DNA of 61,831 bases from an uncultured Erysipelotrichaceae bacterium (GCA_951801965.1 CATOPA010000001.1:1-61831); one strand, 5' to 3'; counted from the stretch's first letter, positions 27,898 through 54,204 are shown. Notes: generated by a model not told the origin, from the sequence alone. Made by a program: numbers and translations.

Positions 27898-27928
27898 ATG
27901 AAAAAGTGTATCTCTACTTCTATAAAGT

Positions 27929-33896: not shown

Positions 33897-34208
33897 ATGA
33901 AAAAACTGGACTATATAGAAGTTGATGGTATTTTATACCCAGATTTACATGTAAATGTAAAATAATTAGGTTATTTTGGTGTGAAAAAGAAGGAATACAT
34001 GAAGATGAAAAGGTACATTATTTGATCATCTTGAACAGACAGATATTCAAGTAAATGATATGTACGACAGACTTGTAGATCAATGCAAAAAACAAAGAAA
34101 TATAACAGAAGAACTAAAAGAACAAGATCAAATGTTATGATACAAGAAATGAATAACATTAAGAATTGTGTGAATGAAGTTATATTAAATGAATTAATTT
34201 ATGAGTAG
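33897..34208 (+). pseudogene. degraded TnpV-like (conjugative-transposon accessory) gene
   Basis: MKKLDYIEVDGILYPDL... is followed by stops and frameshifts and ends ...MNNIKNCVNEVILNELIYE-stop. From memory, both ends match the termini of Firmicute TnpV proteins. Confidence 0.45.
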
Positions 34209-34436: not shown

Positions 34437-34667
34437 ATGGATGTTTGTTACAATAAATTGTTTAAATTACTTATTGATAAAAATATGAAAAAAACAGAGT
34501 TTTCAAAGGCAGCAGGAATTAGTGCTAATACACTAGCAAAATTATCAAAAAATGATTATGTTTCTATGGAAGTATTAGTAAAAATTTGTAGAACATTAGA
34601 ATGTACACCAAATGATATTATGGATATTTTATCTGCTAATAATAAGGAGGGTACAAATGAATATTAA
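34437..34667 (+). CDS. small XRE-family HTH protein, first gene of the BREX operon
   Basis: 76 aa with the HTH MKKTEFSKAAGISANTLAKLSKNDYVSMEVLVKIC. AGGAGG RBS. Its 3' end overlaps the brxA start by 11 nt. Confidence 0.8.
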   Translation: MDVCYNKLFKLLIDKNMKKTEFSKAAGISANTLAKLSKNDYVSMEVLVKICRTLECTPNDIMDILSANNKEGTNEY

Positions 34668-35268
34668 TGAACCCTATAAAGCATCATTTACCCGTGAACA
34701 GTTCTTATTTTATGAAATGAGAACAGTATCACAATTAATGATTGAAGGTAAAAACGATATAGAAATTAGGCAACTTGTATTTGATAATAATTTGTTTCAA
34801 TATCCAACTGAAAAATCGGTAGATAGAATGGTTAAGAACTGCTTAAAAAGATTACATCTTTTAGAGGATATGAGATTAGTTAGCATTATTGCTAATGGAG
34901 CATCAGATAGTGCGAAGCAAGTCTGCTTATATGCAATGATGAATCAATATCGTGTGATTAATGAGTTTATGGTCAATGTCATTGGTGAGAAATATAGAAT
35001 TAAGGATTTTTCTTTCTCAAAAAAAGATATGAATGTTTTTTTCTCTAGATTACAAGAACAAAGTGACGTTGTGGCTAGTTGGAGTGATTCAACTATTCAA
35101 AAATTAAAACAAGTTATTATTAAGATGCTTGTTGATACTGAATATTTAGATGATTCTAAGTCAGAAACACTGAATACAATTTTAATTGATTTTGATTTAA
35201 AAAATATATTAATTGATAAAAGAGATTATGCGACTTTATCAGTCTTTAATTATTTTGAAGGAGAGTAG
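34657..35268 (+). CDS. brxA: BREX protein BrxA (DUF1819-like)
   Basis: 203 aa. Size, position and the N-terminal YKASFTREQFLFYEMRTV pattern fit BrxA. Start moved to the ATG after an AAGGAGGG RBS. Confidence 0.75.
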   Translation: MNINEPYKASFTREQFLFYEMRTVSQLMIEGKNDIEIRQLVFDNNLFQYPTEKSVDRMVKNCLKRLHLLEDMRLVSIIANGASDSAKQVCLYAMMNQYRVINEFMVNVIGEKYRIKDFSFSKKDMNVFFSRLQEQSDVVASWSDSTIQKLKQVIIKMLVDTEYLDDSKSETLNTILIDFDLKNILIDKRDYATLSVFNYFEGE

Positions 35269-35270
35269 TT

Positions 35271-35825
35271 ATGGAAGGTGTAAAAGAGAGACTGGATCGT
35301 TTAAAAAAACTGATTCAAGAATCTGATTTTTTGGAAGGAAAAGGTTTGAGTAATGAGGTTAATATACGAATATTTTGTTATGATCCAAAAGAAGAAATGA
35401 TTATTCGTCATTTTATTAAACGAATTAGTAGTGAATCATTAGATTGTCGTATAATTCATTATGACTTATATGAGGTCTTTTTGAATATATGTAAAGATAA
35501 GCGTATTTTGGATCGAATTCCCGCATTAGAAGAAAAGAAAGGGAAAGAGTTTATACATAAACAATTTGAAAAAAGTTGCGATGCAAAAACTTTTGCTTCA
35601 AAGATGCAATACGAAATTCATCAAAAAGGTGATGTTGTTGTGTTAAGTGGCATTGGAAAAGTATTTCCATTTATGCGAGTGCATTCTTTATTAGAAGCTA
35701 TGCAACCTTTGTTCAATGATGTACCTATTTTAGTTTTTTATCCAGGAGATTTTGATGGCCATTATGTGAAATTATTTAATAAATTAAAAGCAAATGAATA
35801 TTATCGTGCGTTCAAATTAATTTAG
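35271..35825 (+). CDS. brxB: BREX protein BrxB (DUF1788-like)
   Basis: 184 aa, 2 nt after the brxA stop. Size and position are canonical. Confidence 0.75.
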   Translation: MEGVKERLDRLKKLIQESDFLEGKGLSNEVNIRIFCYDPKEEMIIRHFIKRISSESLDCRIIHYDLYEVFLNICKDKRILDRIPALEEKKGKEFIHKQFEKSCDAKTFASKMQYEIHQKGDVVVLSGIGKVFPFMRVHSLLEAMQPLFNDVPILVFYPGDFDGHYVKLFNKLKANEYYRAFKLI

Positions 35826-35837
35826 GAGGGGTTAATT

Positions 35838-38800
35838 ATGTTGATTGAGAAGATGTTTGAAAAGGATATAAATCGTCCAATTAATGGCGTTATTCAAGTA
35901 GAGCAAGATAAAAAAGATGTTATTAAACAAGAAGTTAGTGAATATGTGATTACAACAGAATTGAAGAAACATTTTAATAAATTTTTTGAGAATTATGGTG
36001 CATCTTTTACAACACCAACTGATAACACAGGGGTATGGATTACAGGGTTCTTTGGAAGTGGGAAATCTCATTTCTTAAAGATGTTATCTTATTTGTTAGA
36101 AAATAAGGATATTGATGGCAAACCAACCGTTGAATATTTTAGAGAAAAATATGATGATGAACTTTCTTTTATGAATATAGTTCAATCAACAAATGTTCCT
36201 ACAGAAACGATTCTTTTTAATATTGATGTAGAAGGATCAATGACAAAAGATGATACAGCAGTATTAAGGGTATTTGCAAAGATGTTTTATGATCATCTAG
36301 GTTTTTATGGTGCTGACTTAAAACTTGCTAAATTAGAACAATTTATTTCTAAACGTGGGAAAATGGATGAATTTAAAACTGTTTTTGAACAAAAGAATGG
36401 TGAATCTTGGGAAGATACACGAGAAAATTATGTATTCTTTGAAATGGATGTCATTGATACATTAGTTGAAGTATTAGGGATGACTGAGGATGCTGCACAA
36501 CATTGGTTTGATGGTACTGAAACTGCGGATATTTCTATTGGTCAATTAGTAAGTGAAATTAAGGATTATATTGATTCTAAACCAAAAGGATTTAGATTAT
36601 TATTTATGATTGATGAAGTGGGCCAATATGTTGGAACAAATACAAGTTTATTATTGAACCTTCAATCATTAATTGAAAAATTAGGTTCTGTATGTCGTGG
36701 TCAAGTATGGGTTGTCGCAACAGGACAAGAAGCATTAGATGATATGATTAAAGTACGTACAGATGAATTTTCTAGGATTATGGCACGTTTTAATGTTCGT
36801 TTAAGTTTAACTTCTTCAAGTGTTGGCGAAGTTATTGAAAAGCGTTTATTAACGAAAACACCTGAAGCATATGATAACTTGATAATGGTTTATGATAATA
36901 ATGATTCTGTTTTGAGTAATTTATATTCATTACAATCTCAAAAGAAAGATTTGAAAGGGTATCGCTCTGGGGATGAGTTTGCTCGTATTTTTCCATTTGT
37001 TCCTTATCAATTTATCATTATGAAAGATGTGTTTAATGAAATTCGTAAGAAAGGTCATGCAGGAAAACATCAATCTAGTGGAGAACGTTCGATGTTAAAT
37101 GGATTCCAAGAATCAGCACAAAAAATTAAAAATAGGGATGAGTTTGCGTTAGTTCCAATGTATTATTTCTATGATACATTGCATAGTTTCTTAGACACAG
37201 CAATTCGTAGTGTCATTGAACGTGCTGAAAAAGCAGCACAGTATAATGAAGGATTAACTGAATTTGATGTTAATTTATTAAAGTTATTATATTTAATTCG
37301 TTATATTGATGATGTGCCTTCAAATGTTGAAAATATTACGATTTTAATGGCAGATGATCTTCGTGTTGATAAACAAGTATTAAGAGAAAAAGTAAAAAAA
37401 TCATTAGATTGTTTAATTAATCAAAACTATGTATCTCGCAATGGTGATGTATATATGTTTTTAACAGATGAAGAGCAAGATATAGCAAGAGATATTAAAA
37501 ATACTGAGGTTGATACTTCGACTATTGTATCTCGTATTGGTGATTTAATTTTTAATGATATTTATAGAACAAAGAAATATAAATATGGAAAATATAACTT
37601 TGATTTTAATGCAGGCGTTGATAATCAAGTTACAGGTTCTACATCATTAGATGCAATAAAATTACATTTTATGACTGTGGCTGCAGATCCAAATGAACTT
37701 CAGGAGCTACAATTAATAACAAATTCTAAGAACTCAGAAGCTATTATTGTATTATCTGATGATTATAAATATTTCGAAGCAATGGAAATGGCTGAGAAGA
37801 TTCGTAAATATGTAAAACAAATTAATGTCAACCAAAAACCAGCAAATGTTCAAAAGATTATCACTGATAAACAAAATGAAGCTAGAAGATTAGAAAAACA
37901 AGTGATTGATGATATTAAAGAGGCTATTGTTAATGGTAAATATTATATTGATGGGGAAGTTGTATCTATTCAAGGAAATGATGCAGTAAAGAAAATTGAT
38001 GAAGCTTTAAAATATTTAGTAGAGCATACATATTATAATTTGAATATGATTGAAGAAAACTTTGATACTGATGCAGAAATCATAGCGATATTAAACGGTA
38101 CAAATCGTTCAATAGAAGGTATGAAATCTAATGCTCAAGCTCAAAATGAAATTGTAAAATACTTAGATTTACAATACAGTATGAAAATGCCAACATCAAT
38201 GTTTGATATTCAACAAAGATATTCTAAAAAACCTTTTGGATGGAGAGAATCTGACATTGCTGGTGTTGTAGCACAAGTCATTGTAAGTCAAAATGCAATT
38301 ATTAAATATGCAGGGCAAGTCATTAAACCTAACGATCATCGTATGGTTGGTTTCTTAAGAAAGAAAACAGAAATAGGTCAAGTTAAAATCTCTAAGAGAA
38401 TAGGTATTGATAACTATAAAATCAATCAAACAAAAGCATTCTTAAGAGAATATTTAGATGTTATGGATATTCCAAATGATGAAGATAGTTTAATTGCTTA
38501 TATTATAAAAAATTTCAATGATAAAAAAGTAGAACTTCAGGATTATTTAAATAGAAATAAACAAAGACATTATCCTGGATATAAACAAATTCAAGATGGT
38601 TTATCTTTTATTGAAGAAGTGTTAAGAAATCAAAATGATAATGTTGCTTTAGTAGATACTGTTGTTGATTTACAAGATGATCTTTTAGATAACAAAGATG
38701 ATATGAAGGATGTAGAACAATTCTACAATATACAGTATAGGTTATTTGAAAACGCAGATAACGTATTAAGAATAGCAGAGAGAGAAAAAGATTATTATGT

Positions 38801-39368
38801 AGGTGATGAGATTGTTGAACAAGCAATCGTATCAATGAAAGAAATAGTATGTTATCAAGATAATTACAATTATTCTCGTATTCCAAAGTTAAATGAATAT
38901 ATTGCCACTATTAAAGATGCAAAACAATCATTATTAACTGAAAAGAAACAAGAAGTATTGAATGTTATTGAGCAATGCTTTGCAGAGGTTGAGGCAAAAG
39001 CTCAAGTAGATATGAATAATTTATCTAGTATTTTAAATCAAGCAAGAATTAGTTTTGATAATAAGAAACAAGAAGTTGAAATGCTTGATGATTTAGTTGC
39101 TTTAGAAGCTAAAAAACAAGCTTTATTTAATGATGCAACTCGATATATTATGACTATGGAGCAAGCATTAACACCTGCCCCAGTAAAACCAACACAACCA
39201 GTAACAAAAAAAGATCAGCCAGTTAAAAAAGTGAAGCAATATTATAGACAAGTTATTTTCCCGACAAAAACTATAAAAAATGAAGAAGATATTGATAATT
39301 ACTTAAAAGAATTAAAATCTAAATTAATGGGATTAATCCAAGATGGTGATGAAATTAAATTGAATTAG
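35838..39368 (+). CDS. brxC: BREX ATPase BrxC/PglY
   Basis: 1176 aa. Walker A GFFGSGKSHFLKM and Walker B LLFMIDEVGQY. Confidence 0.88.
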   Translation: MLIEKMFEKDINRPINGVIQVEQDKKDVIKQEVSEYVITTELKKHFNKFFENYGASFTTPTDNTGVWITGFFGSGKSHFLKMLSYLLENKDIDGKPTVEYFREKYDDELSFMNIVQSTNVPTETILFNIDVEGSMTKDDTAVLRVFAKMFYDHLGFYGADLKLAKLEQFISKRGKMDEFKTVFEQKNGESWEDTRENYVFFEMDVIDTLVEVLGMTEDAAQHWFDGTETADISIGQLVSEIKDYIDSKPKGFRLLFMIDEVGQYVGTNTSLLLNLQSLIEKLGSVCRGQVWVVATGQEALDDMIKVRTDEFSRIMARFNVRLSLTSSSVGEVIEKRLLTKTPEAYDNLIMVYDNNDSVLSNLYSLQSQKKDLKGYRSGDEFARIFPFVPYQFIIMKDVFNEIRKKGHAGKHQSSGERSMLNGFQESAQKIKNRDEFALVPMYYFYDTLHSFLDTAIRSVIERAEKAAQYNEGLTEFDVNLLKLLYLIRYIDDVPSNVENITILMADDLRVDKQVLREKVKKSLDCLINQNYVSRNGDVYMFLTDEEQDIARDIKNTEVDTSTIVSRIGDLIFNDIYRTKKYKYGKYNFDFNAGVDNQVTGSTSLDAIKLHFMTVAADPNELQELQLITNSKNSEAIIVLSDDYKYFEAMEMAEKIRKYVKQINVNQKPANVQKIITDKQNEARRLEKQVIDDIKEAIVNGKYYIDGEVVSIQGNDAVKKIDEALKYLVEHTYYNLNMIEENFDTDAEIIAILNGTNRSIEGMKSNAQAQNEIVKYLDLQYSMKMPTSMFDIQQRYSKKPFGWRESDIAGVVAQVIVSQNAIIKYAGQVIKPNDHRMVGFLRKKTEIGQVKISKRIGIDNYKINQTKAFLREYLDVMDIPNDEDSLIAYIIKNFNDKKVELQDYLNRNKQRHYPGYKQIQDGLSFIEEVLRNQNDNVALVDTVVDLQDDLLDNKDDMKDVEQFYNIQYRLFENADNVLRIAEREKDYYVGDEIVEQAIVSMKEIVCYQDNYNYSRIPKLNEYIATIKDAKQSLLTEKKQEVLNVIEQCFAEVEAKAQVDMNNLSSILNQARISFDNKKQEVEMLDDLVALEAKKQALFNDATRYIMTMEQALTPAPVKPTQPVTKKDQPVKKVKQYYRQVIFPTKTIKNEEDIDNYLKELKSKLMGLIQDGDEIKLN

Positions 39369-39378
39369 GGAGATTACT

Positions 39379-39993
39379 ATGATTAATTATGATGATATTA
39401 AAAGTCAAATTATTATATCAATGAAGAATGTTGAACAACAATACTATACTCCTTTAGTTGCTAAATCAGAATTAACATCAGATACTATAAAAAGAGAGCG
39501 AAATTATTGTTATGAACTTTATCATCAATTACGTTCAAATAAAATTTTGATGGAAATGATTAAAGAAAATTATACTTTTAGTTCTGAGATTGACAAACGA
39601 GGACATGAATTATTTGAGGATGATTTAATACCAGATTTCATTCTTCATAGACCAGGTAAAATGTCCTTTGAAAATAAAGATAATCTTTTAGTAATAGAGG
39701 TTAAAGTTGTATTGGATAGTAACTCTTATGATGGCATTGCTAAAGATTTTTATAATTTGTCATTAATGTTAAGCGAATATGGATATCAGTATGGTATATT
39801 TATTTTAATCAACCATGATTTAAACGAATTTAAAAGAAAATTTAGATATATATGTAATAAAAGTTGGTTTGCAAATATGAAAGAAAATCAAAAGGAAAAA
39901 TTTTCTGAGATTGATATTATTTGTTCAAAAGAAGAGGGAAAAATAGATAGTATTATTACATTAGAAAAACTAATGAAGGAGGCTGATTTATGA
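39379..39993 (+). CDS. hypothetical 204-aa protein with a PD-(D/E)xK-like motif, inserted between brxC and pglX
   Basis: E46 (YCYELYH), P85-D86 (LIPDFIL) and E107-V-K109 (LLVIEVK) have spacing typical of restriction-endonuclease-fold nucleases. The stop overlaps the pglX ATG (ATGA). Confidence 0.7.
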   Translation: MINYDDIKSQIIISMKNVEQQYYTPLVAKSELTSDTIKRERNYCYELYHQLRSNKILMEMIKENYTFSSEIDKRGHELFEDDLIPDFILHRPGKMSFENKDNLLVIEVKVVLDSNSYDGIAKDFYNLSLMLSEYGYQYGIFILINHDLNEFKRKFRYICNKSWFANMKENQKEKFSEIDIICSKEEGKIDSIITLEKLMKEADL

Positions 39994-42900
39994 ATAAAAC
40001 AGCAATAAAAAACTATGCTGTCTGGGCTCGTAATGAATTGATTGAACGAGTGACTAGAAAAGCATTTGAATATGAAGTTACAAATGTAGGTGAATTAAAT
40101 AGCACGTTAGACGTTGTAAACGGAAAACTATTAACAGCAGATGAAAAGAAACAACGTCAAGAGTTAATTCGTGTTGTAAAAGAAAAAGGGTTTGATCAAG
40201 TTATGGAAGAAGTGGCATATACTTGGTTTAATCGCTTTATTGCGTTGCGTTTTATGGAAGTAAATAATTATCTTCCAAAGCGTGTAAGAATCTTTACAAA
40301 TGAAAATAATGAATTTAAACCTCAAATTATCGATGAAGCAATGAATCTTGATTTATATGGGTTAGATAAAACAGAAATCTATGAGTTACTTCAATCAAAC
40401 AGGCGTCAAGAGTTATATAAGAAATTGTTAATTGCGACTTGTAACGATATGGGGAATTATTTGCCAGGAATGTTTACAAAGATTAATGATTATAAAGTGT
40501 TGTTGTTTCCAGATAACTTATTAAATGATGATAGTGTATTAGGAAAACTAATTTCTGATATTGATGAAGATAGTTGGATTGATTCGGATATAGAGAATGA
40601 GTCTAGTAATGGTATCACTATTATAGGATGGTTATATCAATATTATATTTCTGAAAAGCATAATCAAGTCATTAATATTTTAAAAGGAACAGTAAAAAAA
40701 GAGGATATTCCAGCTGCTACTCAGTTATGGACTACTGATTGGGTTGTTCGTTATATGGTAGACAATTCTTTAGGACGTTATTGGATAGAAAGAAATCCAA
40801 ATAGTTCATTAAAAGACAAATTAGCTTATTTAGCTACATCTAAAAATAATGATTTACTTTTAGTAAATGAACGAGTTAATCCAGAAGAGATTACATTTTT
40901 GGATCCGTGTATGGGGTCTGGTCATATATTGGTTTATGCATTTGAGATATTTATGGAAATTTATAAAGAATGTGGATATTCTGAAAGAGATGCAGCATTA
41001 AGTATAATTCAAAATAACTTGTATGGTTTGGATATTGATGATAGAGCTTATCAATTATCTTATTTTGCAGTTATGATGAAAGCAAGAAGCTATAATCGTA
41101 GAATTTTGGCAAAAGAAGTTTCAATAAATTTAGCTTCTATACAAGAAAGTAACTCTATTGAACGATTTACTAACGAAGATATTACTACAAACAAAGAGTT
41201 AAATCAAATTGGTGAATATTTAGTAAATACTTTTAAACATGCTAAGGAATTGGGGTCATTAATTGATGTTAGAGTATTAGACTATCAATTATTCGATGAG
41301 TATTTAAATGAACTAAAAAATACAGTGTCAGTTAATTTGTATACATTAGATTGGCAAACATATGTTCTCCCACAAATGATTGAAATGAGTAAACAAGCCC
41401 AGATTCTTAGTAAAAAATATACAATTTGTACTACAAATCCTCCATATATGGGGAAAATGGAAGAGAATCTAAAACCATTTGTCATTAAAAACTATAAAGA
41501 TTATTCACCTGATTTATTTGCAGTATTTATGCGTAAGAATTTTGATTTTACAATTAAAGGTGGTTATCTTGGCTTTATGACTCCATTTGTATGGATGTTT
41601 ATCAAGTCTTATGAAAAGTTAAGAGAATATATTATCAATAATAAGAATATTGCAACCCTTGTTCAAATGGAATATTCAGCATATGAAGAAGCAACTGTAC
41701 CTATTTGCAGTTTTGTGTTAAAGAATGAAAGAACGGACACTGAAGGATATTATTATAGATTATCCGATTTTAAAGGTGGTATGGAAGTTCAAAAAGAAAA
41801 AGTATTAGAAGCTCAATCTAATAAGAATTGTGGGTATTTCTATGAAATATCAGCATCTAACTTCTCAAAAATACCCGGAAGTCCGATTGCATATTGGATT
41901 AGCAACGGATTTGTCAATGCCTTTGCGAACGGGCGACCATTGTCGCCTGTAGCTAAGCCTTGTGCTGGCTTGCAAACAGGCGACAATGGTCGCTTCCTAA
42001 GGCAATGGTTTGAAGTTGCTATTAAAAATATTTGTTTTGATGCAGTGTCTACCGAGGACGCCTACGCGCGCGCGGCGCACTGGTATCCATATAATAAAGG
42101 CGGAGAATTTAGAAAATGGTATGGTAATAACGATTATGTTGTCAACTGGGAAAATGATGGCTTTGAAATAAAACATTTCAAAGATCAAAATGGAAAATTA
42201 AGATCAAGACCACAAAATACTAATTATTATTTTAAAGAATGTGGTTCTTGGTCCTTAGTAACATCTTCGGCTACTGCTTTTAGGTATAAGCCTAATGGCT
42301 TTATCTTTGATGTTGCAGGCATGAGTTTCTTTGCTAATAAGCATTTATCATATTATATCGGTTTTTGTAATACAAAAATTGCATACGAAATTCTAAAAAT
42401 AATTGCTCCAACTATTAATTTTCAAGCAGGAGATATTGCAAAATTGCCAATTATTTTTAGTGAGGATAGAGTTGGCATTATAGAGAAGTTGGTTTTAGAT
42501 AATATATCTATTTCAAAACAAGACTGGGATTCTTTTGAAACGTCTTGGGATTTTGCTGCTCATCCTTTAGTCAAGAATAATGTTTCTAGTATTAAAGAAG
42601 CACACTCTTTATGGGATAAAGAATGTAATGAACGATTTAATCAATTAAAAGCTAATGAGGAAGAATTAAATAGAATCTTTATTGATATTTATGGACTACA
42701 AGATGAATTAAGTCCTGAAGTAGAAGATAAAGATGTTACTGTGCGTAAAGCCAATTTAACAAGAGATATTAAATCATTTATTAGTTATGCGGTTGGTTGT
42801 ATGTTTGGTAGATATTCTTTAGATGAAGATGGTTTAGCTTATGCAGGTGGTGAATTTAATCCTAACAAATATAAATCATTTGCTGTAGATCAAGATAACA

Positions 42901-43469: not shown

Positions 43470-43486
43470 AAAAACGAGGAGGGGTA

Positions 43487-46999: not shown

Positions 47000-47067
47000 G
47001 TGAATTTAGAAAATGGAGATTGAAGATATGCGAAAGAATTTGAAATATAGACGTTCTGAATTCCGTG

Positions 47068-47089
47068 GAATAACATTCTAATGTTATTC
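47068..47089. promoter_or_regulatory. 22-bp palindrome GAATAACATT-CT-AATGTTATTC upstream of the COG2865-type gene
   Basis: Perfect 10-bp arms, 39 nt upstream of the ATG at 47128. It overlaps a possible TTCTGA-N17-TCTAAT promoter. Confidence 0.4.
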
Positions 47090-47127
47090 TAATTGCAAAA
47101 AAGCACTTTTGATTAAGGGAGGCACAT

Positions 47128-48813
47128 ATGTTAAATAATGATGAATTATTATTGATTTTAAATAAATTAATCTCTAATTGGGAGAATGAAGTTGTTGAAT
47201 TCAAGGAAGCAAAAAAAGACTTTGATAAAAACGATATTGGAAAGTATTTTTCAGCTCTTAGCAATGAGTCAAATTTACATAATTTGCAATTTGGTTGGTT
47301 AATTTTTGGTGTGCGTGATAAAAATAGAGAAATTGTAGGAACAGAATATCGTAACAATCCTGGTTTGATGAAATTAAAGCAAGAAATATCAATGCAAACA
47401 ACAGGAGGGCTATCATTTATAGAAATATATGAAGTATATCCAATTATTGATGGAGAAAAAAGACGTGTCATTATGCTGCAAATTCCTTCTGCAGTAGCAG
47501 GTATTCCTACAGGATGGAAAGATCATTATTATGGACGTAATGGAGAATCTTTAAGTGCTTTATCAATGAACGAGATAGAAGAAATTCGTAGGCAACAAAA
47601 TAAAGATTGGTCTAAACAAATTATTGTAGGTGCTAGTATAGAACATCTTAATAAAGAAGCTATAGATTTAGCTAGAAAAAACTATAAAGAAAAAATGAAT
47701 AAGACACATATTGTTGAAGCAGTTGACGAAATGAATGATGAAGAATTCTTAACTAAATTAAAGCTTTTACAAAATGGTAAAGTAACGAATGCTGCTATGC
47801 TTTTACTTGGCAATGAAGATTATGATTATTTATTTAATTGTGTACCAGAAGCGTCTTGGAGACTTTATGATTCAAAGGGTGATGTAAAGGATTATGAGAT
47901 TTTTAAAGTACCTTTCATCACTTTGGGTGATAGAATTTTAAGTAAAATAAGAAATTTAACATATAGATACATGACAAATCCAAACAGTTTATTTCCTAGT
48001 GAAACTAAACAGTATGATAGTTGGTTATTGAGAGAGCTTTTAAACAACTGCATAGCTCATTCAAACTATGCATTGGGAACTAGAATTATTTTAGATGAAG
48101 AAGAAGATCAAGTGACTTTTAAAAATCCTGGTACTTTTTTACCTGGAAATATTGAAATTGCATTAGAGAAGAACTATAATTCACCATTTTATCGTAATCA
48201 GTTATTAGCTGAAACTATGGTGAAACTTAATATGATAGACACTCAATCTATGGGAATCAGAAAAGTATATCGAATTCAAAAAGATAAATTTTTCCCTATG
48301 CCAGATTATGATTTAAAGACAGTTAATCAAGTAAATGTTAGAGTTTATGGTAGAGTGTTAAATGATAACTATACCAAAGTATTATTTGAACACCCAGAGT
48401 TTGATATTGAAACAGTATATTTGATAGATCAAGTTCAAAAAGGGAAAAATATTAGTAGCGATGCTGTAAAATACCTTAGAAAATTGAAAGTCATTGAAGG
48501 AAGGCAACCAAATATTTATGTATCCGCAAGTGTTGCTGATATACTTGATGAAAAAGATAAATATGTTAAAAACAAAGCTTTTGATAACGATTACTATAAG
48601 GATTTGATTGTTGAATACTTAAAAACATATGGTTATGCAACAAGAGAAGATATTCGTAAGTTATTAATCGATAAATTATCGAATACATTATCTGCCAAAC
48701 AAAAAGAGTCAAAGGTAAAAAATTTATTAGATTCTTTAAAATATGCAGGTGTTATTGAAATTGATAAGCTAGCTTCTAAGAATACTAAATGGAAATTAAA
48801 AAAGAATAAATAG
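47128..48813 (+). CDS. Schlafen/AlbA_2 domain + HATPase_c_4-like + C-terminal wHTH protein (COG2865-type putative regulator)
   Basis: 561 aa. N-terminal NEVVEFKEAKKDF...YFSALSNESNL..GWLIFGV (AlbA_2), central RELLNNCIAHSNYALGTRIILDEEEDQVTFKNPGTF (RecG-C/HATPase_c_4-like) and a C-terminal HTH-like tail. Confidence 0.75.
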   Translation: MLNNDELLLILNKLISNWENEVVEFKEAKKDFDKNDIGKYFSALSNESNLHNLQFGWLIFGVRDKNREIVGTEYRNNPGLMKLKQEISMQTTGGLSFIEIYEVYPIIDGEKRRVIMLQIPSAVAGIPTGWKDHYYGRNGESLSALSMNEIEEIRRQQNKDWSKQIIVGASIEHLNKEAIDLARKNYKEKMNKTHIVEAVDEMNDEEFLTKLKLLQNGKVTNAAMLLLGNEDYDYLFNCVPEASWRLYDSKGDVKDYEIFKVPFITLGDRILSKIRNLTYRYMTNPNSLFPSETKQYDSWLLRELLNNCIAHSNYALGTRIILDEEEDQVTFKNPGTFLPGNIEIALEKNYNSPFYRNQLLAETMVKLNMIDTQSMGIRKVYRIQKDKFFPMPDYDLKTVNQVNVRVYGRVLNDNYTKVLFEHPEFDIETVYLIDQVQKGKNISSDAVKYLRKLKVIEGRQPNIYVSASVADILDEKDKYVKNKAFDNDYYKDLIVEYLKTYGYATREDIRKLLIDKLSNTLSAKQKESKVKNLLDSLKYAGVIEIDKLASKNTKWKLKKNK

Positions 48814-48842
48814 AGATAGAATTTTTATATATTAATTCTATT

Positions 48843-48910
48843 ATTCGGCTAATTATTCAGCTAGATTCAGCTAATTATTCAGCTAGATTCAGCTAATTAT
48901 TTGGTTAAAT
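48843..48910. repeat. tandem array of 10-12-bp ATTCAGCTA(G/ATT) units
   Basis: Units run ATTCGGCTAATT / ATTCAGCTAG / ATTCAGCTAATT / ATTCAGCTAG / ATTCAGCTAATT / ATTTGGTTAAAT. The 22-bp double unit is repeated exactly twice (48855-48898). The array lies between the COG2865-type stop and the pglZ start. Confidence 0.9.
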
Positions 48911-48941
48911 CGTAATAATAAAAAAATGGAGGGTTCAGAAT

Positions 48942-51533
48942 ATGGCATTAGAAGATATAAAGAAGAATTTGGAACAGAGGTTTTCTGAACCTTTGACGGA
49001 ATTTTATGAACGAAGAATTATCTTTTGGGATGATGAAGAAAAAGAGTTTTTAGATGAAATAAATGAATTGGAACTAAGTAATGCGAAAGTTCTTGTATTA
49101 AATGAAACGAATAATTTTATTGTGAAAAAGACATTGTCTTTTGATGATGAAACTAGTAATTATTTGGTTTATAACTGCTTTGATACCAATATGGAAGATG
49201 ATTGGTTATTAGATATTAAGTTATATAGTGATGAATTTAGAGCGGATCAGATTTCGATGTGGATGCAAGAAATGAATATTGAATCAAATCCTGCTATAAG
49301 AAATAAAATTAAAATTTATAGAGGATTCTTAAAAGCCGAGAGTAGAAGAAAGTTGGTTTCACAATTTGGTTCTGAGATTACAACACCATCAAAATTACAT
49401 TTGGCTATACTTGCTTCTATTTGTAAAGTAAGGACAATGAATCCAAAGGATATAATCAAAGCAGTAATTGCTGATGGTGATGACCTTAGTAATCAACTAA
49501 AGATGAGTATGCTTACTTATAATGCAAGTGATACATTTTGGAGTTTAGTCAGTAAAGTTACTGGATATTCAAATGAAGCTGTATCAAACATTGATGAAAT
49601 GAATGTACATATCGTGTTAAGTGCTTTAACAAAAACAATGGATGAAAAGCATTTATCTGGCTTGGAACAACGATACAATTCTTTTCATAATGGTTTTTGT
49701 TATGAAATGCTTTATGAATGGTTGCATAGTGATAAAAAAGATGAGTTAGTAGATGTCTTACGTTATGTTGAAAAAGAATTAAGGCTTGTTGATCGATTTG
49801 AAAACAATAAAATTTCAGATTTGGTTGATACAGAACTTTTACCTTGTATTGATGAAGTTATTTTGAATAAATTAATGCAACGTATTATTGAAAATACAAT
49901 TAGTGCCGACGAAGTAATCGCCACGATAGAAAAACGAAGAACAATGGTTTGGTATCAAGAAAATGAAAATTATTACACTGCTTTAATGCAAGTAGCTTAT
50001 ATGCAGAAGTTCTATGTTGATCACATAGGTGGTTTCCATCATTCAAGTGGAAAGGCTATTTGGAATGCATATACTATTGATTATTATTTAATGGATATGT
50101 ATTATCGTAAATTTCATGTTGCTTTTGCATGTAGTTTAACAGATTCAAATCAATTGTTAGATGATGAATTTAGAAGTGTTGTAGATGTTGTTGAAACACT
50201 ATATAAAAATTGGTATTTAGATCAATTAGCTGAAAACTTTACCAATGTGATAGAATCCGACTTATCATCAAGTGGAGTTATAAAGGGAATTTATCATCAA
50301 GAGCAGTTTTATTCAAGAGTAGTATCTTCTTATGACAATAAAGTGTTTGTGATTATTTCTGATGCTTTGCGTTATGAAGTAGCTAGTAGTATTGCTGATG
50401 AATTAAGAATCACAACGAAGTCAGATGTTTCTATTGAAAGTCAACAATCTATCTTCCCAAGTATTACGAAGTTTGGTATGGCAGCTTTATTGCCACATCA
50501 AGAGCTATCTATAGGTAAAAAATCTGATGGATTGAGTGTTTTGGTTGATGGTCAATCTTCTGAAATGAATGATCGTGATGCTATTCTTAAAAAGAGTAAT
50601 CCAAATAGTGTTGCCATAAAATATAAAAACTTTGTTTTAATGAAGAAAGAAGAACAAAGAGAACTTATTAAAGGACAAGAAGTGATTTATATTTATCATG
50701 ATACAATTGATAGTACAGGACATCACAATGAAATGAATGTATTTACTGCTTGTGAAACAGCTAAAGATGAAATTGTAAGTTTGGTTAAAATAATTACGAA
50801 CTCTTTAAATGGTTTAAATGTTGTTATTACTTCAGATCATGGTTTCTTATATACATATCAGCCTTTAATAAATAGTGATCGTATGGATCGGTCTTCATTT
50901 AAACAAGATATTATTGAACAAGGTAGAAGGTATGTTATAACAGATGATAAAGCTAATCCTGATTTTTTAATGCCAGTTAAGGGATTCTACAACGAAAATG
51001 GCTATCAAGCATTTGCACCTAGAGAAAATATTCGTATTAAGGGTTCTGGTAGACAAAATTTTGTACATGGTGGTGCAAGTTTACAAGAATTAGTTGTACC
51101 AGTTATCAAATATAAATTCTTAAGATCTGGATATAAAGGTTATGAAATGAATAAAGATAAATATGATTCTAAACCTGTAACTTTAACTTTATTATCAGCA
51201 GGTCGTAAGATTAGTAATATGATCTTTAATTTAAGTTTCTATCAAAAAGAAGCAGTTAAAGATAATTATGTACCTTGTACTTATCAAGTATTCTTGACTG
51301 ATTTTAATGGAAACATTATTAGTGATATTCAAAAGATTGTAGCTGATCGTTCAAGCACAAATAATGTTGATCGTGAATATCGTGCAACATTTAATTTAAA
51401 ACAACAACAATATAGTAATAGAGAAATTTATTATCTTGTTATTCAAGATGAAGAAGGCTTACAAGTGCCAATTAAAGAAGAAATGCAAATTGATATATCA
51501 ATGGCATTTGATGATTTTGATTTCTTTGAATAG
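48942..51533 (+). CDS. pglZ: BREX alkaline-phosphatase-superfamily protein PglZ
   Basis: 863 aa. IISDALRYEVA, DTIDSTGHH and ITSDHGF motifs. Confidence 0.9.
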   Translation: MALEDIKKNLEQRFSEPLTEFYERRIIFWDDEEKEFLDEINELELSNAKVLVLNETNNFIVKKTLSFDDETSNYLVYNCFDTNMEDDWLLDIKLYSDEFRADQISMWMQEMNIESNPAIRNKIKIYRGFLKAESRRKLVSQFGSEITTPSKLHLAILASICKVRTMNPKDIIKAVIADGDDLSNQLKMSMLTYNASDTFWSLVSKVTGYSNEAVSNIDEMNVHIVLSALTKTMDEKHLSGLEQRYNSFHNGFCYEMLYEWLHSDKKDELVDVLRYVEKELRLVDRFENNKISDLVDTELLPCIDEVILNKLMQRIIENTISADEVIATIEKRRTMVWYQENENYYTALMQVAYMQKFYVDHIGGFHHSSGKAIWNAYTIDYYLMDMYYRKFHVAFACSLTDSNQLLDDEFRSVVDVVETLYKNWYLDQLAENFTNVIESDLSSSGVIKGIYHQEQFYSRVVSSYDNKVFVIISDALRYEVASSIADELRITTKSDVSIESQQSIFPSITKFGMAALLPHQELSIGKKSDGLSVLVDGQSSEMNDRDAILKKSNPNSVAIKYKNFVLMKKEEQRELIKGQEVIYIYHDTIDSTGHHNEMNVFTACETAKDEIVSLVKIITNSLNGLNVVITSDHGFLYTYQPLINSDRMDRSSFKQDIIEQGRRYVITDDKANPDFLMPVKGFYNENGYQAFAPRENIRIKGSGRQNFVHGGASLQELVVPVIKYKFLRSGYKGYEMNKDKYDSKPVTLTLLSAGRKISNMIFNLSFYQKEAVKDNYVPCTYQVFLTDFNGNIISDIQKIVADRSSTNNVDREYRATFNLKQQQYSNREIYYLVIQDEEGLQVPIKEEMQIDISMAFDDFDFFE

Positions 51534-51545
51534 GGGGGGATTGTT

Positions 51546-53582
51546 TTGGATAGAGATACAATTAAACAAAAATTAAGAACCTTTTATGATGGTAAAATCG
51601 TTAGAAAAGATCTTACAAAGAAAATTAAAGAAGGTGCAAATGTACCAGTTTATGTACTAGAGTTTTTGTTAGGTCAATATTGTAATTCTGATGATGAAGC
51701 TATTATTGAAGTAGGAGTAGAGAAAGTTAAAAAGATACTTGCTGATAATTTTGTTCGCCCTGATGAAGCACAAAAAATATTATCTTTATTAAGACAAAAA
51801 GGATCCTATTCAGTGATTGATCGTATGACGGTGCGATTAGATGTAAAAAAAGATACTTATTTTGCAGAGTTTTCTAATCTTGGGTTAAAAGATGTACCTA
51901 TACCAGAAGACTATCCAACTCAATTTGATCGCTTATTATGCGGTGGTATTTGGTGTATGGTATCTTTGGAATATGAGTATTTAGAAGAAGATAAAAAAGG
52001 AAATCCAATAAAAATCCGTAACTTGAAGCCAATTCAAATGCCTTATATTGATATTAATGAGTTTAAAGAGAACAGAAAAGAATTTACAAAAGAGGAATGG
52101 ATTGATATATTACTTCGTTCGATTGGTATGGAGCCAGATGAGTTAAGTGATAGAGAAAAATGGTTGTTAATTTTAAGAATGGTTCCTTTAGCTGAAAATA
52201 ATTTTAATTTATGTGAACTTGGCCCAAGAAGTACTGGAAAATCTCATTTATATAAGGAAATATCACCAAATAGTATTTTAGTATCTGGTGGTCAGACAAC
52301 AGTGGCTAATTTATTTTATAATATGGGTAGAAAGACTGTGGGTTTGGTAGGTCTATGGGATTGCGTTGCCTTTGATGAAGTAGCAGGAATTAATTTCAAA
52401 GATAAAGATGGTATTCAAATTATGAAAGATTATATGGCTTCTGGTTCTTTTGCCCGTGGAAAAGAAGAAAAGTCTGCTAGTGCATCAATGGTATTTGTAG
52501 GTAATATTAATCAAAGTGTAGATGTATTATTAAAGACTTCTTCATTATTTGATCCATTTCCACTTGAAATGGGTACCGATACAGCCTTTTTGGATCGTAT
52601 GCACTGTTATTTACCAGGATGGGAAGTACCTAAATTTAGACCTAATCACTTTACGGATGATTATGGATTCATAACGGATTATTTATCAGAAGTTTTTAGA
52701 GAACTAAGAAAGGTCCAACAAGGAGACTCTTTAGATAAATATTATCGATTGGGTAAAAATTTAAATCAACGTGATACGATTGCAGTAAGAAAAATGGTAT
52801 CAGGATTGATAAAGTTAATTTATCCAGATGGGAATTATACTAAAGAGGAACTTGAGGAAATTCTAAGATTATCACTAGAAATGCGTAGAAGAGTAAAAGA
52901 ACAACTAAAAAAACTTGGTGGTATGGAGTTCTATGATATTAATTTCTCATACATAGATAATGAATCGTTTGAAGAAAAATATGTATCTGTGCCAGAACAA
53001 GGTGGGGGAAAATTGATTCCAGATGGTATGTGTAATCCAGGTCAGGTTTATACTATTGGGCAAGGAAAATCAGGTATGATTGGAGTCTTTAGACTTGAAA
53101 GTCAGATGATACCAGGAAATGGTAAGTTTGATAAAACTGGATTGGGAAGTGATAGAGAATGTAAAGAGGCGGTTTCTATTGCATTTAATTATTTAAAAGC
53201 AAATGTTAAAAGAATTAGTGGTGCCATTAGTACAACGACAAAAGATTATATTATCAATTATCAAGATTTACAGGGAATTGGTATGATGGATAAACTAACT
53301 TTGCCAACACTAATTGCATTATGTTCCATTGCATTAGGGAAACCAACACTAGCAAATTTAGCAATTATTGGTGATATTACAATTAGTGGAACAATGATAA
53401 AAGTTGATGAATTAGCTAACACACTTCAAGTATGTTTAGATAGTGGAGCGAAAAAAGTATTAATTCCGAGTACATCATTCACTGATTTTGCAACTGTTCC
53501 AGCGGAATTGATGAGTGCCTTTCAACTTATACCATATCAAAGTGCAGAAGATGCTGTATATAAGGCACTTGGTGTAGAATAA
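51546..53582 (+). CDS. brxL: BREX Lon-like protease/ATPase BrxL
   Basis: 678 aa. Walker A GPRSTGKSHLY, Walker B VAFDEVAG and a Lon-protease-like C-terminus. TTG start 6 nt after a GGGGGGG RBS. Confidence 0.88.
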   Translation: MDRDTIKQKLRTFYDGKIVRKDLTKKIKEGANVPVYVLEFLLGQYCNSDDEAIIEVGVEKVKKILADNFVRPDEAQKILSLLRQKGSYSVIDRMTVRLDVKKDTYFAEFSNLGLKDVPIPEDYPTQFDRLLCGGIWCMVSLEYEYLEEDKKGNPIKIRNLKPIQMPYIDINEFKENRKEFTKEEWIDILLRSIGMEPDELSDREKWLLILRMVPLAENNFNLCELGPRSTGKSHLYKEISPNSILVSGGQTTVANLFYNMGRKTVGLVGLWDCVAFDEVAGINFKDKDGIQIMKDYMASGSFARGKEEKSASASMVFVGNINQSVDVLLKTSSLFDPFPLEMGTDTAFLDRMHCYLPGWEVPKFRPNHFTDDYGFITDYLSEVFRELRKVQQGDSLDKYYRLGKNLNQRDTIAVRKMVSGLIKLIYPDGNYTKEELEEILRLSLEMRRRVKEQLKKLGGMEFYDINFSYIDNESFEEKYVSVPEQGGGKLIPDGMCNPGQVYTIGQGKSGMIGVFRLESQMIPGNGKFDKTGLGSDRECKEAVSIAFNYLKANVKRISGAISTTTKDYIINYQDLQGIGMMDKLTLPTLIALCSIALGKPTLANLAIIGDITISGTMIKVDELANTLQVCLDSGAKKVLIPSTSFTDFATVPAELMSAFQLIPYQSAEDAVYKALGVE

Positions 53583-54154: not shown

Positions 54155-54204
54155 GAAATACGAAATCAAATATTAAATAACAAAAGATGAAAGGAGAAGA
54201 TTGG

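What the first reader, a model, noticed from the sequence alone, without database searches (positions are those of the whole stretch)
34437..53582. Complete type 1 BREX locus whose canonical six-gene array is interrupted three times by extra genes
All six type 1 BREX genes are present on one strand in canonical order.
- brxA is 203 aa and brxB is 184 aa.
- brxC is 1176 aa with Walker A and B motifs.
- pglX is 1159 aa with SAM and NPPY motifs.
- pglZ is 863 aa and brxL is 678 aa with a Lon-like C-terminus.

Unlike the textbook arrangement, the array carries extra genes:
- an XRE gene overlaps brxA;
- a 204-aa ORF sits between brxC and pglX with a stop/start overlap;
- two large genes (a 1170-aa SIR2 fusion and a 561-aa COG2865-type gene) occupy the pglX-pglZ junction.

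As I recall, in Bacillus cereus BREX that junction is the boundary between two transcription units (brxA-pglX and pglZ-brxL), so it is a natural landing site for cargo.

Gene spacing suggests one long transcript from the XRE gene through SIR2: gaps or overlaps are -11, 2, 12, 10, -4 and 17 nt. The COG2865-type gene is then isolated by two intergenic regions of exactly 128 nt each, and pglZ-brxL follow with a 12-nt gap.

BREX has no known effector nuclease or NADase. A BREX operon hard-wired to a nuclease-fold protein and a SIR2 protein could therefore be a composite system rather than a mere neighbourhood.
Basis: partly seen in the sequence, partly recalled or inferred. Interest (0 to 1): 0.75.

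Follow-up and report, generated by a model that had tools for sequence, protein, structure and literature searches.

The report
BREX locus carrying nested defence genes
This is a complete, ordinary type 1 BREX anti-phage locus whose gene junctions hold extra, mostly self-contained defence genes, a pattern already described for BREX; the one poorly understood part is a small nuclease-like gene coupled to the methyltransferase gene.

Summary
All six type 1 BREX genes lie at the stated coordinates, in canonical order on the + strand, and every quoted gene spacing is correct.

The extra genes are:
- a 76-aa XRE-type regulator overlapping brxA;
- a 204-aa protein with an invariant PD-(D/E)xK-type motif, overlapping the pglX start;
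- a 1170-aa DSR2-like SIR2 NADase;
- a 561-aa Schlafen/AlbA_2 plus HATPase_c_4 protein.

The "hard-wired composite" reading is not supported for the two large genes. In related BREX loci (PglZ 58-79% identical) the pglX-pglZ spacer is either empty or holds unrelated defence cargo. That cargo includes a radical-SAM pair, a KAP NTPase, a TIR protein and a T5orf172 protein, always placed between the pglX stop and a conserved pglZ ribosome-binding site. DSR2-like relatives also occur alone, away from BREX.

Published surveys already report genes between BREX components in most genomes, and Schlafen-kinase-wHTH genes next to BREX in over 1000 taxa.

The 204-aa gene belongs to a large family with no model in Pfam, NCBIfam or PADLOC (about 3500 cluster representatives), and most members are not near BREX. 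One subclade sits against pglX, and in some loci inside a split pglX. That is the only part worth following up.

The parts
33897..34134 (+). Degraded TnpV-like remnant at the left edge of the island, between pyrG and the XRE gene
   Evidence: tblastn with the TnpV protein of locus L001 matches window 33897-33956 and 34012-34134 (45-49% identity, best E = 2e-9). In L001 an integrase, a NikA-like gene, TnpV and a resolvase sit at this position.
34437..34667 (+). 76-aa XRE-family helix-turn-helix regulator, overlapping brxA by 11 nt
   Evidence: Pfam HTH_26 E = 5e-19. It is VanU-like in NCBIfam but below the cut-off. An XRE gene 48-67% identical sits directly upstream of brxA in L002, L094, L098, L100 and L041.
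34657..35268 (+). brxA (203 aa)
   Evidence: Pfam BrxA E = 1e-59; PADLOC BrxA E = 9e-63, aligned 1-198 of 201.
35271..35825 (+). brxB (184 aa)
   Evidence: Pfam BrxB E = 1e-37; PADLOC BrxB E = 2e-74.
35838..39368 (+). brxC (1176 aa, ATPase)
   Evidence: PADLOC BrxC 1203 bits over its full length; Pfam BrxC 4th, wHTH and helical domains. The Walker A motif GSGKSH is visible in the sequence.
39379..39993 (+). orf204: small PD-(D/E)xK-type (restriction-endonuclease-fold) protein. It starts 10 nt after brxC, and its stop overlaps the pglX start (ATGA).
   Evidence: There is no hit in Pfam, PADLOC or NCBIfam. Residues E46, E70, D72, K73, P85-D86, H90, E107, K109, D123 and Y136 are invariant in 27 sequences, and all but D72, E107 and D123 (80 of 81 each) stay invariant in 81. 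The AF2 model has pLDDT 88 and an alpha-beta-beta-beta-alpha-beta core. The best fold matches are restriction endonucleases and NucC, but only at E >= 0.02. Six of 27 members give a weak Mrr_cat hit. The same position is occupied in L001, L002-L004, L108 and L109.
39990..43469 (+). pglX (1159 aa, N6-adenine methyltransferase and specificity factor)
   Evidence: PADLOC PglX 1509 bits; Pfam Eco57I, MmeI_Mtase and N6_Mtase. NPPY is visible in the sequence. The stretch 41087-42621, which falls in the target-recognition part of PglX, is the only core segment with no DNA homology to related loci.
43487..46999 (+). DSR2-like SIR2 NADase (1170 aa): an N-terminal SIR2 domain followed by a long all-helical region. 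It is cargo in the pglX-pglZ spacer.
   Evidence: PADLOC Dsr2 E = 2e-114 over its full length. NCBIfam Dsr2 aligns over its full length but scores 381 bits against a cut-off of 1400. Pfam SIR2_2. The catalytic N131 and H170 are invariant in 36 homologues. The AF2 model has pLDDT 85. The top 44 Foldseek hits are B. subtilis DSR2 (E about 1e-14 for the best; TM 0.8 on the SIR2 domain). GC is 23-24%, against 28-31% for the BREX genes.
47128..48813 (+). Prokaryotic Schlafen (AlbA_2) plus HATPase_c_4 protein (561 aa, COG2865 type). It is cargo immediately upstream of pglZ.
   Evidence: Pfam SLFN_AlbA_2 E = 4e-13 and HATPase_c_4 E = 5e-12. The motif E20-x4-E25-x-K27 is present, matching the motif described in bioRxiv 2025.07.24.666596. 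A 65% identical copy sits at the same position in L100.
48844..48905 (+). Array of four exact and two degenerate TTCAGCTA repeats, spaced 10-12 nt, in the spacer before pglZ
   Evidence: The sequence is shown. The 8-mer occurs 11 times in the window against 2.7 expected, and four copies are clustered here. The function was not tested.
48942..51533 (+). pglZ (863 aa)
   Evidence: Pfam PglZ E = 2e-53; PADLOC PglZ 839 bits. The ribosome-binding site GGAGGGTTCAGAA is shared with L001, L093 and L096.
51546..53582 (+). brxL (678 aa, Lon-like)
   Evidence: Pfam BrxL_N, BrxL_ATPase (E = 7e-144) and Lon_C; PADLOC BrxL 1111 bits.
54187..55724 (+). Second, frameshifted AlbA_2/HATPase_c_4 gene downstream of brxL (pseudogene)
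   Evidence: The 123-aa ORF matches AlbA_2 positions 1-71 of 118, and the 357-aa ORF matches HATPase_c_4. A single-frame translation breaks after residue 123. It is not closely related to the intact copy.

Best explanation
The locus is a canonical type 1 BREX system: brxA, brxB, brxC, pglX, pglZ and brxL, preceded by a clade-typical XRE regulator. It lies on a former mobile island between pyrG and a two-component system. Its short inter-gene spacers serve as insertion points for other defence genes.

Two of the extra genes are self-contained cargo in the pglX-pglZ spacer:
- The DSR2-like sirtuin. By homology with B. subtilis DSR2, it would sense a phage structural protein through its helical C-terminal part and then deplete NAD+.
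- The Schlafen-kinase-type protein. By homology with prokaryotic Schlafens, it would be an infection-triggered RNase.

They add abortive-infection layers behind the methylation-based exclusion by BREX. They probably borrow BREX transcription: the DSR2-like gene starts 17 nt after pglX and has its own ribosome-binding site. They do not need BREX proteins to act.

The 204-aa gene is a catalytically intact PD-(D/E)xK-type nuclease. In this BREX subclade it is translationally coupled to pglX and most likely acts as an auxiliary nuclease.

What is shown: gene identities, positions, the variability of cargo in related loci, and the occurrence of DSR2-like genes outside BREX. What is inferred: every activity and trigger, and the operon structure.
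For: 1. BREX identity.

2. The cargo is cassette-like. In BREX loci with PglZ 58-79% identical to the window's, the pglX-pglZ spacer is:
- empty, 14-16 nt, in L094, L095 and L098;
- filled with a PDC-M30/M41-like protein plus a radical-SAM protein in L001 and L093;
- filled with a PDC-S49 KAP NTPase in L002;
- filled with a TIR protein in L096;
- filled with a PDC-S57 T5orf172 protein in L097;
- filled with a DSR2-like gene, an R2K ATP-grasp gene and a Schlafen gene in L100.

3. Other spacers also take cargo: an AAA_13 PDC-S06 gene at brxC|pglX in L095, and Mrr (L094) or AbiH (L100) at pglZ|brxL.

4. DNA homology to related loci stops at the pglX stop (43469) and resumes at the pglZ ribosome-binding site (about 48914-48942).

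5. The DSR2-like gene has 23-24% GC, against 28-31% for the BREX genes.

6. DSR2-like relatives stand without BREX:
- L099 is 57% identical, with no PglX or PglZ on either side.
- L102 sits next to an AlwI-type restriction-modification pair.
- L103 has no BREX or other recognised defence gene beside it.
- A C. tyrobutyricum plasmid carries a dsr2 annotated by PGAP, between a toxin-antitoxin pair and a recombinase.

7. DSR2 assignment: PADLOC, NCBIfam and Foldseek. The catalytic N and H are invariant. Compared with the L100 copy, the SIR2 domain is 62-77% identical but the C-terminal part only 24-36%. That is the pattern expected of a conserved effector joined to a fast-changing sensor.

8. Literature:
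- About 7000 of about 9000 genomes carrying pglX and pglZ have genes between BREX components (PMC11341690).
- Standalone PD-(D/E)XK nucleases and Schlafen-kinase-wHTH proteins are reported as recurrent BREX neighbours (PMC12839542).
- Schlafen-kinase is the commonest prokaryotic Schlafen architecture.
Against: - The DSR2-like plus Schlafen pair recurs at the same junction in a second BREX lineage, L100/L101. There the Schlafen copy (65%) is as similar as the BREX core (58-80%). The pairing is therefore not a one-off and could reflect selection for the combination.
- All genes share one strand and tight spacing, and no terminator-like site was predicted between them. That scan performed no better than on shuffled sequence.
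- orf204 is found against pglX in 8 of 9 BREX-linked lineages, which is more specific than random cargo.
- No activity was tested.
- The DSR2-like protein fails the NCBIfam equivalog cut-off. Its trigger may therefore differ from that of B. subtilis DSR2.
Confidence: 0.75

Rival explanations
1. Composite system. BREX components detect unmethylated phage DNA and pass the signal to the DSR2-like NADase and/or the Schlafen RNase. These would then be dedicated BREX effectors rather than independent systems.
For: The DSR2-like and Schlafen genes recur together at the pglX-pglZ junction in L100/L101, with an XRE-led BREX of the same clade. The genes share one strand, and only 17 nt separate pglX from the DSR2-like gene. 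PMC12839542 argues that nested nucleases act as backup effectors of BREX.
Against: Related BREX loci lack both genes or carry unrelated cargo at the same site. The closest DSR2-like relative found (57%, L099) and more distant ones (L102, L103, L110) are not flanked by BREX genes. The fold matches B. subtilis DSR2 across SIR2 and helical regions. From background knowledge, DSR2 is a self-sufficient single-gene system, and Schlafen fusions also defend alone.
Confidence: 0.1
2. orf204 is a dedicated nuclease partner of PglX. It would supply in trans the cleavage function that MmeI-type enzymes carry in cis, so this BREX subclade would cut unmethylated target DNA.
For: - Its stop overlaps the pglX start, and its last codons carry the pglX ribosome-binding site.
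- The same arrangement occurs in five lineages (window, L001, L002, L108, L109).
- The nearest other relatives lie between the two halves of a split pglX in L005/L013 and L008, tightly packed with both halves.
- The active-site residues are invariant.
Against: - Only 4 of 80 sampled genome loci with a family member have BREX nearby, and non-BREX members have no conserved neighbour.
- BREX relatives L094, L098 and L100 work from a direct brxC-pglX junction without it.
- The L108 copy is truncated to 148 aa.
- The copies in L016, L041 and L048 are closest to non-BREX members, which indicates separate acquisitions.
- No similarity to the MmeI nuclease domain was found.
Confidence: 0.2
3. orf204 is a selfish, homing-type nuclease gene with no defence role. 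It inserts at or within pglX and elsewhere, in the way free-standing homing endonucleases split phage genes.
For: It is a solitary gene in very varied contexts across bacteria and archaea, with no conserved partner. Among related BREX loci it is precisely present or absent. In L005 and L008 it splits pglX at the same residue, about 861/868.
Against: It is nearly absent from viral contigs (4 loci in 2.9 million). No flanking repeats or intron or intein features were seen. The window, L005 and L008 copies are only 38-41% identical. That fits long vertical inheritance with BREX rather than recent homing. Strict conservation of about 16 residues fits any active nuclease and does not discriminate between these readings.
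Confidence: 0.12

Closest known systems
Type 1 BREX loci with nested defence systems (Salmonella D23580 BREX with PARIS; E. fergusonii pEFER BREX with BrxU)
   Same: The six core genes are in the same order, with extra defence genes placed between BREX components, chiefly between pglX and pglZ. PMC11341690 reports this in about 7000 of about 9000 genomes.
   Different: The cargo here is a DSR2-like sirtuin plus a Schlafen-kinase-type protein rather than PARIS or a GmrSD enzyme. The host is a low-GC (about 30%) organism that I could not identify. The regulator is a small XRE protein, not the WYL protein BrxR.
B. subtilis DSR2 (defence-associated sirtuin 2)
   Same: Both have an N-terminal SIR2 domain with the catalytic N and H, followed by a long helical region. 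The top 44 Foldseek hits are DSR2 structures. The PADLOC and NCBIfam Dsr2 models align over their full length.
   Different: Identity to the solved protein is only 13-14%, and sequence searches of the PDB find no DSR2 chain. It scores below the NCBIfam equivalog cut-off (381 against 1400 bits). It is about 165 residues longer. Its trigger is unknown.
Prokaryotic Schlafen-histidine-kinase(-HTH) proteins (pSlfn; COG2865 type)
   Same: Both have an AlbA_2/Schlafen domain with the E-x4-E-x-K motif followed by HATPase_c_4. This architecture is reported next to BREX and related loci in at least 1017 taxa and is the commonest pSlfn type.
   Different: There is no PADLOC or NCBIfam model hit. The two pSlfns shown to defend have other architectures, so defence by this type remains inferred.
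Standalone PD-(D/E)XK nucleases listed as auxiliary BREX effectors (PMC12839542)
   Same: orf204 is a small single-domain protein with a PD...ExK motif, encoded inside the BREX core locus.
   Different: The family has no model in Pfam, NCBIfam or PADLOC and has its own extra invariant motifs (RERxYCYELYHQ and EIDKRGH). Most members are not BREX-linked. One subclade is translationally coupled to pglX or sits inside a split pglX. I did not find that arrangement described in the papers I read.

Membership tests
Type 1 BREX | All six genes (brxA, brxB, brxC, pglX, pglZ, brxL) present, recognised by family models | tested here: met
   Pfam and PADLOC hits for all six, mostly over their full length.
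Type 1 BREX | Canonical gene order on one strand | tested here: met
   The order A-B-C-X-Z-L is on the + strand. Related loci L094 and L098 show the same order with no inserts at brxC-pglX or pglX-pglZ.
Type 1 BREX | Site-specific N6-adenine methylation of the host and exclusion of unmethylated phage | not testable with these tools
   Only the NPPY and SAM-binding motifs are visible.
DSR2 (defence-associated sirtuin 2) | N-terminal SIR2 domain with catalytic Asn and His | tested here: met
   Pfam SIR2_2 E = 4e-23. N131 and H170 are invariant in 36 homologues and align with the ThsA active-site region.
DSR2 (defence-associated sirtuin 2) | Full-length similarity to DSR2 family models | tested here: met
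   PADLOC Dsr2 aligns residues 5-1163 to model positions 7-1220 of 1222, E = 2e-114. NCBIfam Dsr2 aligns residues 5-1162 to positions 2-1215 of 1215.
DSR2 (defence-associated sirtuin 2) | Score above the curated NCBIfam equivalog cut-off | tested here: not met
   381 bits against a cut-off of 1400. I therefore file it as DSR2-like, not as an equivalog.
DSR2 (defence-associated sirtuin 2) | Fold of the solved B. subtilis DSR2 (SIR2 plus helical middle and C-terminal domains) | tested here: met
   The top 44 Foldseek hits are DSR2 chains, probability 1.00, with about 1100-1240 aligned columns. Whole-chain TM is only 0.3-0.4; on the SIR2 domain it is 0.8.
DSR2 (defence-associated sirtuin 2) | Activation by a phage tail tube protein, followed by NAD+ depletion | not testable with these tools
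   This needs infection assays.
Prokaryotic Schlafen (pSlfn) with kinase-like domain | Schlafen/AlbA_2 domain with the E-x4-(E/D)-x-K motif | tested here: met
   Pfam SLFN_AlbA_2 E = 4e-13. ENEVVEFK lies at residues 20-27.
Prokaryotic Schlafen (pSlfn) with kinase-like domain | Fused minimal histidine-kinase-like ATPase domain | tested here: met
   HATPase_c_4 E = 5e-12, residues 317-404.
Prokaryotic Schlafen (pSlfn) with kinase-like domain | C-terminal winged helix-turn-helix domain | not tested
   No family hit covers residues 405-561, and no model of that region was made.
PD-(D/E)xK nuclease superfamily (orf204) | Conserved acidic and lysine residues in the pattern E...PD...(D/E)xK | tested here: met
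   E46, P85-D86 and K109 are invariant, and E107 is present in 80 of 81 sequences, from bacteria and archaea.
PD-(D/E)xK nuclease superfamily (orf204) | Alpha-beta-beta-beta-alpha-beta core fold | tested here: met
   In the AF2 model (pLDDT 88), helix 40-53, strands 66-69, 87-90 and 102-109, helix 117-133 and strand 136-144 carry the motif residues in the expected places.
PD-(D/E)xK nuclease superfamily (orf204) | Significant sequence or structure match to a characterised member | tested here: inconclusive
   The best Foldseek hits are EcoO109I, PaqCI, Bse634I, OkrAI and NucC at E = 0.02-0.3. Mrr_cat appears at E >= 0.016 in 6 of 27 members. hhalign against an Mrr protein aligns the ExK strand, but with 2% probability. 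A profile search of the PDB finds nothing relevant.
MmeI-type (type IIL/IIG) nuclease domain | Homology of orf204 to the N-terminal nuclease domain of MmeI-like enzymes | tested here: not met
   There is no MmeI family hit in Pfam at E <= 1, and MmeI is not among the top 50 fold matches.
BrxR-type BREX regulator | WYL-domain transcription factor upstream of brxA | tested here: not met
   The upstream gene is a 76-aa HTH_26/XRE protein with no WYL domain. A WYL gene is seen only in the distant loci L005-L007.

The most novel reading that the evidence does not exclude
The orf204 subclade is a previously unrecognised nuclease subunit of BREX that works with PglX. It is encoded just before pglX in this clade and between the two halves of a stably split pglX in another. 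It would give these BREX variants a restriction-like DNA cleavage step. The wider family, with about 3500 cluster representatives and no model in Pfam, NCBIfam or PADLOC, would be a new class of small solitary defence nucleases.
Probability: 0.2. Interest if true: 0.65.

Novelty: new member of a known kind. Interest (0 to 1): 0.33.

Why it matters
As it stands, the locus is one more example of a known rule: BREX operons act as scaffolds for other defence genes. It is a clean one, because related loci show empty and differently filled versions of the same 14-16-nt spacer. That makes it a convenient natural series for testing whether nested systems merely share a neighbourhood and transcription with BREX or cooperate with it.

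A DSR2-like NADase inside BREX is not mentioned in the papers I could read. It extends the list of nested effectors from nucleases to NAD+ depletion.

The small PD-(D/E)xK-type gene coupled to pglX could bear on an open question, namely how BREX stops phage DNA. That holds only if it proves to work with PglX.

Tried and rejected
- **Promoter and terminator scan of 34001-54000.** Counts equalled those in shuffled sequence in this AT-rich DNA (138 against 143 promoter-like sites; 5 against 3.8 terminator-like sites). It says nothing about operon structure.
- **The two 128-nt spacers as duplicated sequence.** The alignment shows no real similarity, so I rejected this.
- **Sequence searches of the PDB for DSR2.** The protein, its C-terminal part and a 36-sequence profile found only SIR2 domains of ThsA and similar proteins. 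The link to DSR2 came only from family models and fold search.
- **orf204 against the PDB by profile.** Nothing relevant was found.
- **orf204 against an Mrr protein by hhalign.** The right strand aligned, but with 2% probability.
- **Domain fusions of orf204 relatives.** P0288, P0197 and P0200 had no recognisable partner domain. Only an archaeal MazE/AbrB-like fusion was found.
- **Conserved neighbours of non-BREX orf204 relatives.** None were found by clustering or by Pfam on 146 flanking ORFs.
- **Phage origin of orf204.** Only 4 viral contigs carry a relative.
- **Second Schlafen-type gene as a duplicate of the first.** tblastn found no match, so I rejected this.
- **Identifying the organism.** There are no tRNA genes, the cluster look-up of pyrG gave no organism names, and the genome scan found no relative of orf204 above 41% identity.
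- **The Goldfarb 2015 statement on two transcription units.** I could not check it because the paper is not held.
- **Whether the PMC11341690 supplement lists DSR2.** No text match was found.

Full report
**Observation.** The + strand carries, in order:
- XRE (34437-34667)
- brxA (34657-35268)
- brxB (35271-35825)
- brxC (35838-39368)
- a 204-aa ORF (39379-39993)
- pglX (39990-43469)
- a 1170-aa SIR2 protein (43487-46999)
- a 561-aa protein (47128-48813)
- pglZ (48942-51533)
- brxL (51546-53582)

The gaps are -11, 2, 12, 10, -4, 17, 128, 128 and 12 nt. Pfam and PADLOC recognise all six BREX proteins, mostly over their full length. The 203-aa start of brxA is supported by a ribosome-binding site and by end-to-end alignment to the PADLOC BrxA model. 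The two 128-nt spacers are unrelated in sequence, so their equal length is probably chance.

**The extra genes.**
- The first is a 76-aa HTH_26/XRE protein.
- The 1170-aa protein matches the PADLOC Dsr2 model over its full length (E = 2e-114). It also aligns end to end with the NCBIfam Dsr2 model, but at 381 bits against an equivalog cut-off of 1400.
- Sequence searches of the PDB find only SIR2 domains of other proteins. An AlphaFold model built on 36 homologues (pLDDT 85) has B. subtilis DSR2 as its top 44 Foldseek hits.
- The catalytic Asn131 and His170 are invariant in the family. I therefore call the protein DSR2-like.
- The 561-aa protein has a Schlafen/AlbA_2 domain with the E-x4-E-x-K motif, followed by HATPase_c_4. 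That is the commonest architecture of prokaryotic Schlafens.
- The 204-aa protein has no hit in Pfam, PADLOC or NCBIfam.

**Is the cargo tied to BREX?** I collected related BREX loci through homologues of the 204-aa protein, of PglZ and of the SIR2 protein. In loci whose PglZ is 58-79% identical to the window's, the content of the pglX-pglZ spacer varies:

| Locus | Content of the pglX-pglZ spacer |
|---|---|
| L094, L095, L098 | empty (14-16 nt) |
| L001, L093 | PDC-M30/M41-like protein plus a radical-SAM protein |
| L002 | PDC-S49 KAP NTPase |
| L096 | TIR protein |
| L097 | PDC-S57 T5orf172 protein |
| L100, L101 | DSR2-like gene (41% identical), R2K ATP-grasp gene, Schlafen-type gene (65%) |

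Other spacers also take cargo. L095 has an AAA_13 PDC-S06 gene between brxC and pglX. Between pglZ and brxL, L094 has an Mrr-type enzyme and L100 has AbiH.

At the DNA level, homology to related loci ends at the pglX stop codon and resumes at a conserved pglZ ribosome-binding site, GGAGG(G)TTC. The DSR2-like gene is also lower in GC (23-24%) than the BREX genes (28-31%).

DSR2-like relatives occur without BREX:
- L099, the closest relative found (57%), has no PglX or PglZ on either side.
- L102 sits beside an AlwI-type restriction-modification pair.
- L103 has no BREX or other recognised defence gene beside it.
- A Clostridium tyrobutyricum plasmid carries a PGAP-annotated dsr2 between a toxin-antitoxin pair and a recombinase.

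The one point in its favour is that the DSR2-like plus Schlafen pair recurs in L100. Between the two DSR2-like copies the SIR2 domain is 62-77% identical but the C-terminal part only 24-36%. That pattern fits a conserved effector joined to a fast-evolving sensor.

**What is already known.**
- PMC11341690 reports that about 7000 of about 9000 genomes with pglX and pglZ have genes between BREX components. BrxU and PARIS are the commonest recognised systems there.
- PMC12839542 describes nested auxiliary and backup nucleases in BREX loci. These include standalone PD-(D/E)XK enzymes, and Schlafen-kinase-wHTH proteins in at least 1017 taxa.
- The same paper cites work showing PglZ to be a metal-dependent nuclease.
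- That paper does not mention SIR2, TIR or NADase cargo. My literature searches found no description of a DSR2-like gene inside BREX.

**The 204-aa gene.** A word-indexed search found only 31 relatives. A profile search of 1.84 billion cluster representatives found 3502 at E <= 0.001 and 510 at E <= 1e-30, mostly 170-210 aa.

- *Motif and fold.* Sixteen residues are invariant in the first 27 sequences, among them E46, E70, D72, K73, P85-D86, H90, E107, K109, D123 and Y136. In 81 sequences from bacteria and archaea all sixteen are invariant or differ in a single sequence. The AlphaFold model (pLDDT 88) has the alpha-beta-beta-beta-alpha-beta core of PD-(D/E)xK nucleases, with these residues in the expected places.
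- *Weak matches only.* Fold matches are to restriction endonucleases and NucC, at E >= 0.02. Six members give a weak Mrr_cat hit. There is no sign of relatedness to the MmeI nuclease domain.
- *Context.* Among 80 loci from species-representative genomes, only four have BREX nearby. The rest share no neighbour. Viral contigs hardly carry the gene.
- *Position within BREX loci.* It lies before pglX with overlapping stop and start in the window, L001, L002, L108 and L109. It lies directly after pglX in L016 and L041. In L005/L013 and L008 it lies between an 881-aa N part and a 313-345-aa C part of pglX. The split falls at the position of residue 861/868 of the window's PglX.
- *Relationships.* The before-pglX and inside-pglX groups are each other's nearest relatives. 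The after-pglX and after-brxL copies are nearest to non-BREX members. There were therefore several separate acquisitions.
- *Dispensability.* BREX relatives L094, L098 and L100 lack the gene, and the L108 copy is truncated.

I conclude that it is an active small nuclease that has joined BREX loci more than once. In one subclade it has become tightly coupled to pglX. Whether it works with PglX, independently, or selfishly cannot be settled here.

**Surroundings.**
- To the left, between pyrG and the XRE gene, lies a degraded TnpV-like remnant. L001 has an integrase, TnpV and a resolvase at that position.
- To the right of brxL lies a second, frameshifted AlbA_2/HATPase_c_4 gene, followed by a two-component system.
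- An XRE gene directly upstream of brxA is typical of this BREX clade.
- The spacer before pglZ holds an array of TTCAGCTA repeats.

**Verdict.** The proposal of a hard-wired BREX-SIR2-nuclease composite is not supported for the two large genes. The locus is a new example of a known arrangement. One component deserves follow-up: the small nuclease coupled to pglX.

Noticed in passing
L005 7334-11607; L008 935-5062; L013 6-3730: In a distant BREX group, pglX is split into an 881-aa N part and a 313-345-aa C part, with the orf204 homologue between them. The split falls at the position of residue 861/868 of the window's PglX. The three ORFs are tightly packed. The arrangement is kept in lineages whose orf204 homologues are only 39% identical.
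   Followed up: partly
window 48844-48905; L100 about 16370-16500: The spacer between the Schlafen-type gene and pglZ holds four exact and two degenerate TTCAGCTA repeats at 10-12-nt spacing. L100 has a different iterated motif (TTTGCAAA, 3-4 copies) at the same place. This could be a locus-specific operator array.
   Followed up: partly
window 54187-55724: A second AlbA_2/HATPase_c_4 gene lies downstream of brxL. It is broken by a frameshift after residue 123 and is not closely related to the intact copy at 47128-48813.
   Followed up: partly
window 33897-34134: A TnpV-like pseudogene remnant lies between pyrG and the XRE gene. It suggests that the BREX island arrived on a mobile element. L001 has an integrase, a NikA-like gene, TnpV and a resolvase at the same side.
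   Followed up: partly
window 41087-42621: This stretch falls in the target-recognition part of pglX. It is the only stretch of the BREX core with no DNA homology to any related locus, which would fit a different methylation motif in each locus.
   Followed up: no
L008 3-143: A further fragment matching PglX residues 818-864 lies upstream of the split pglX, at the contig start. It may be a second N-part copy or a variable cassette.
   Followed up: no
L001 14155-16042 and L093 1278-3165: The same two-gene cargo occupies the pglX-pglZ spacer in two loci: a 364-aa PDC-M30/M41-like protein and a 267-aa radical-SAM protein. It is a candidate defence pair known only from PADLOC candidate models.
   Followed up: no
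L099 378-3889: The closest DSR2-like relative (57%) appears frameshifted near residue 969. It is called as a 983-aa ORF plus a 172-aa ORF.
   Followed up: no
window 24517-32011: Two large secreted GH20 hexosaminidase-type proteins with FIVAR and MucBP domains lie upstream of pyrG. This hints at a mucosa-associated low-GC organism. The organism could not be identified.
   Followed up: no
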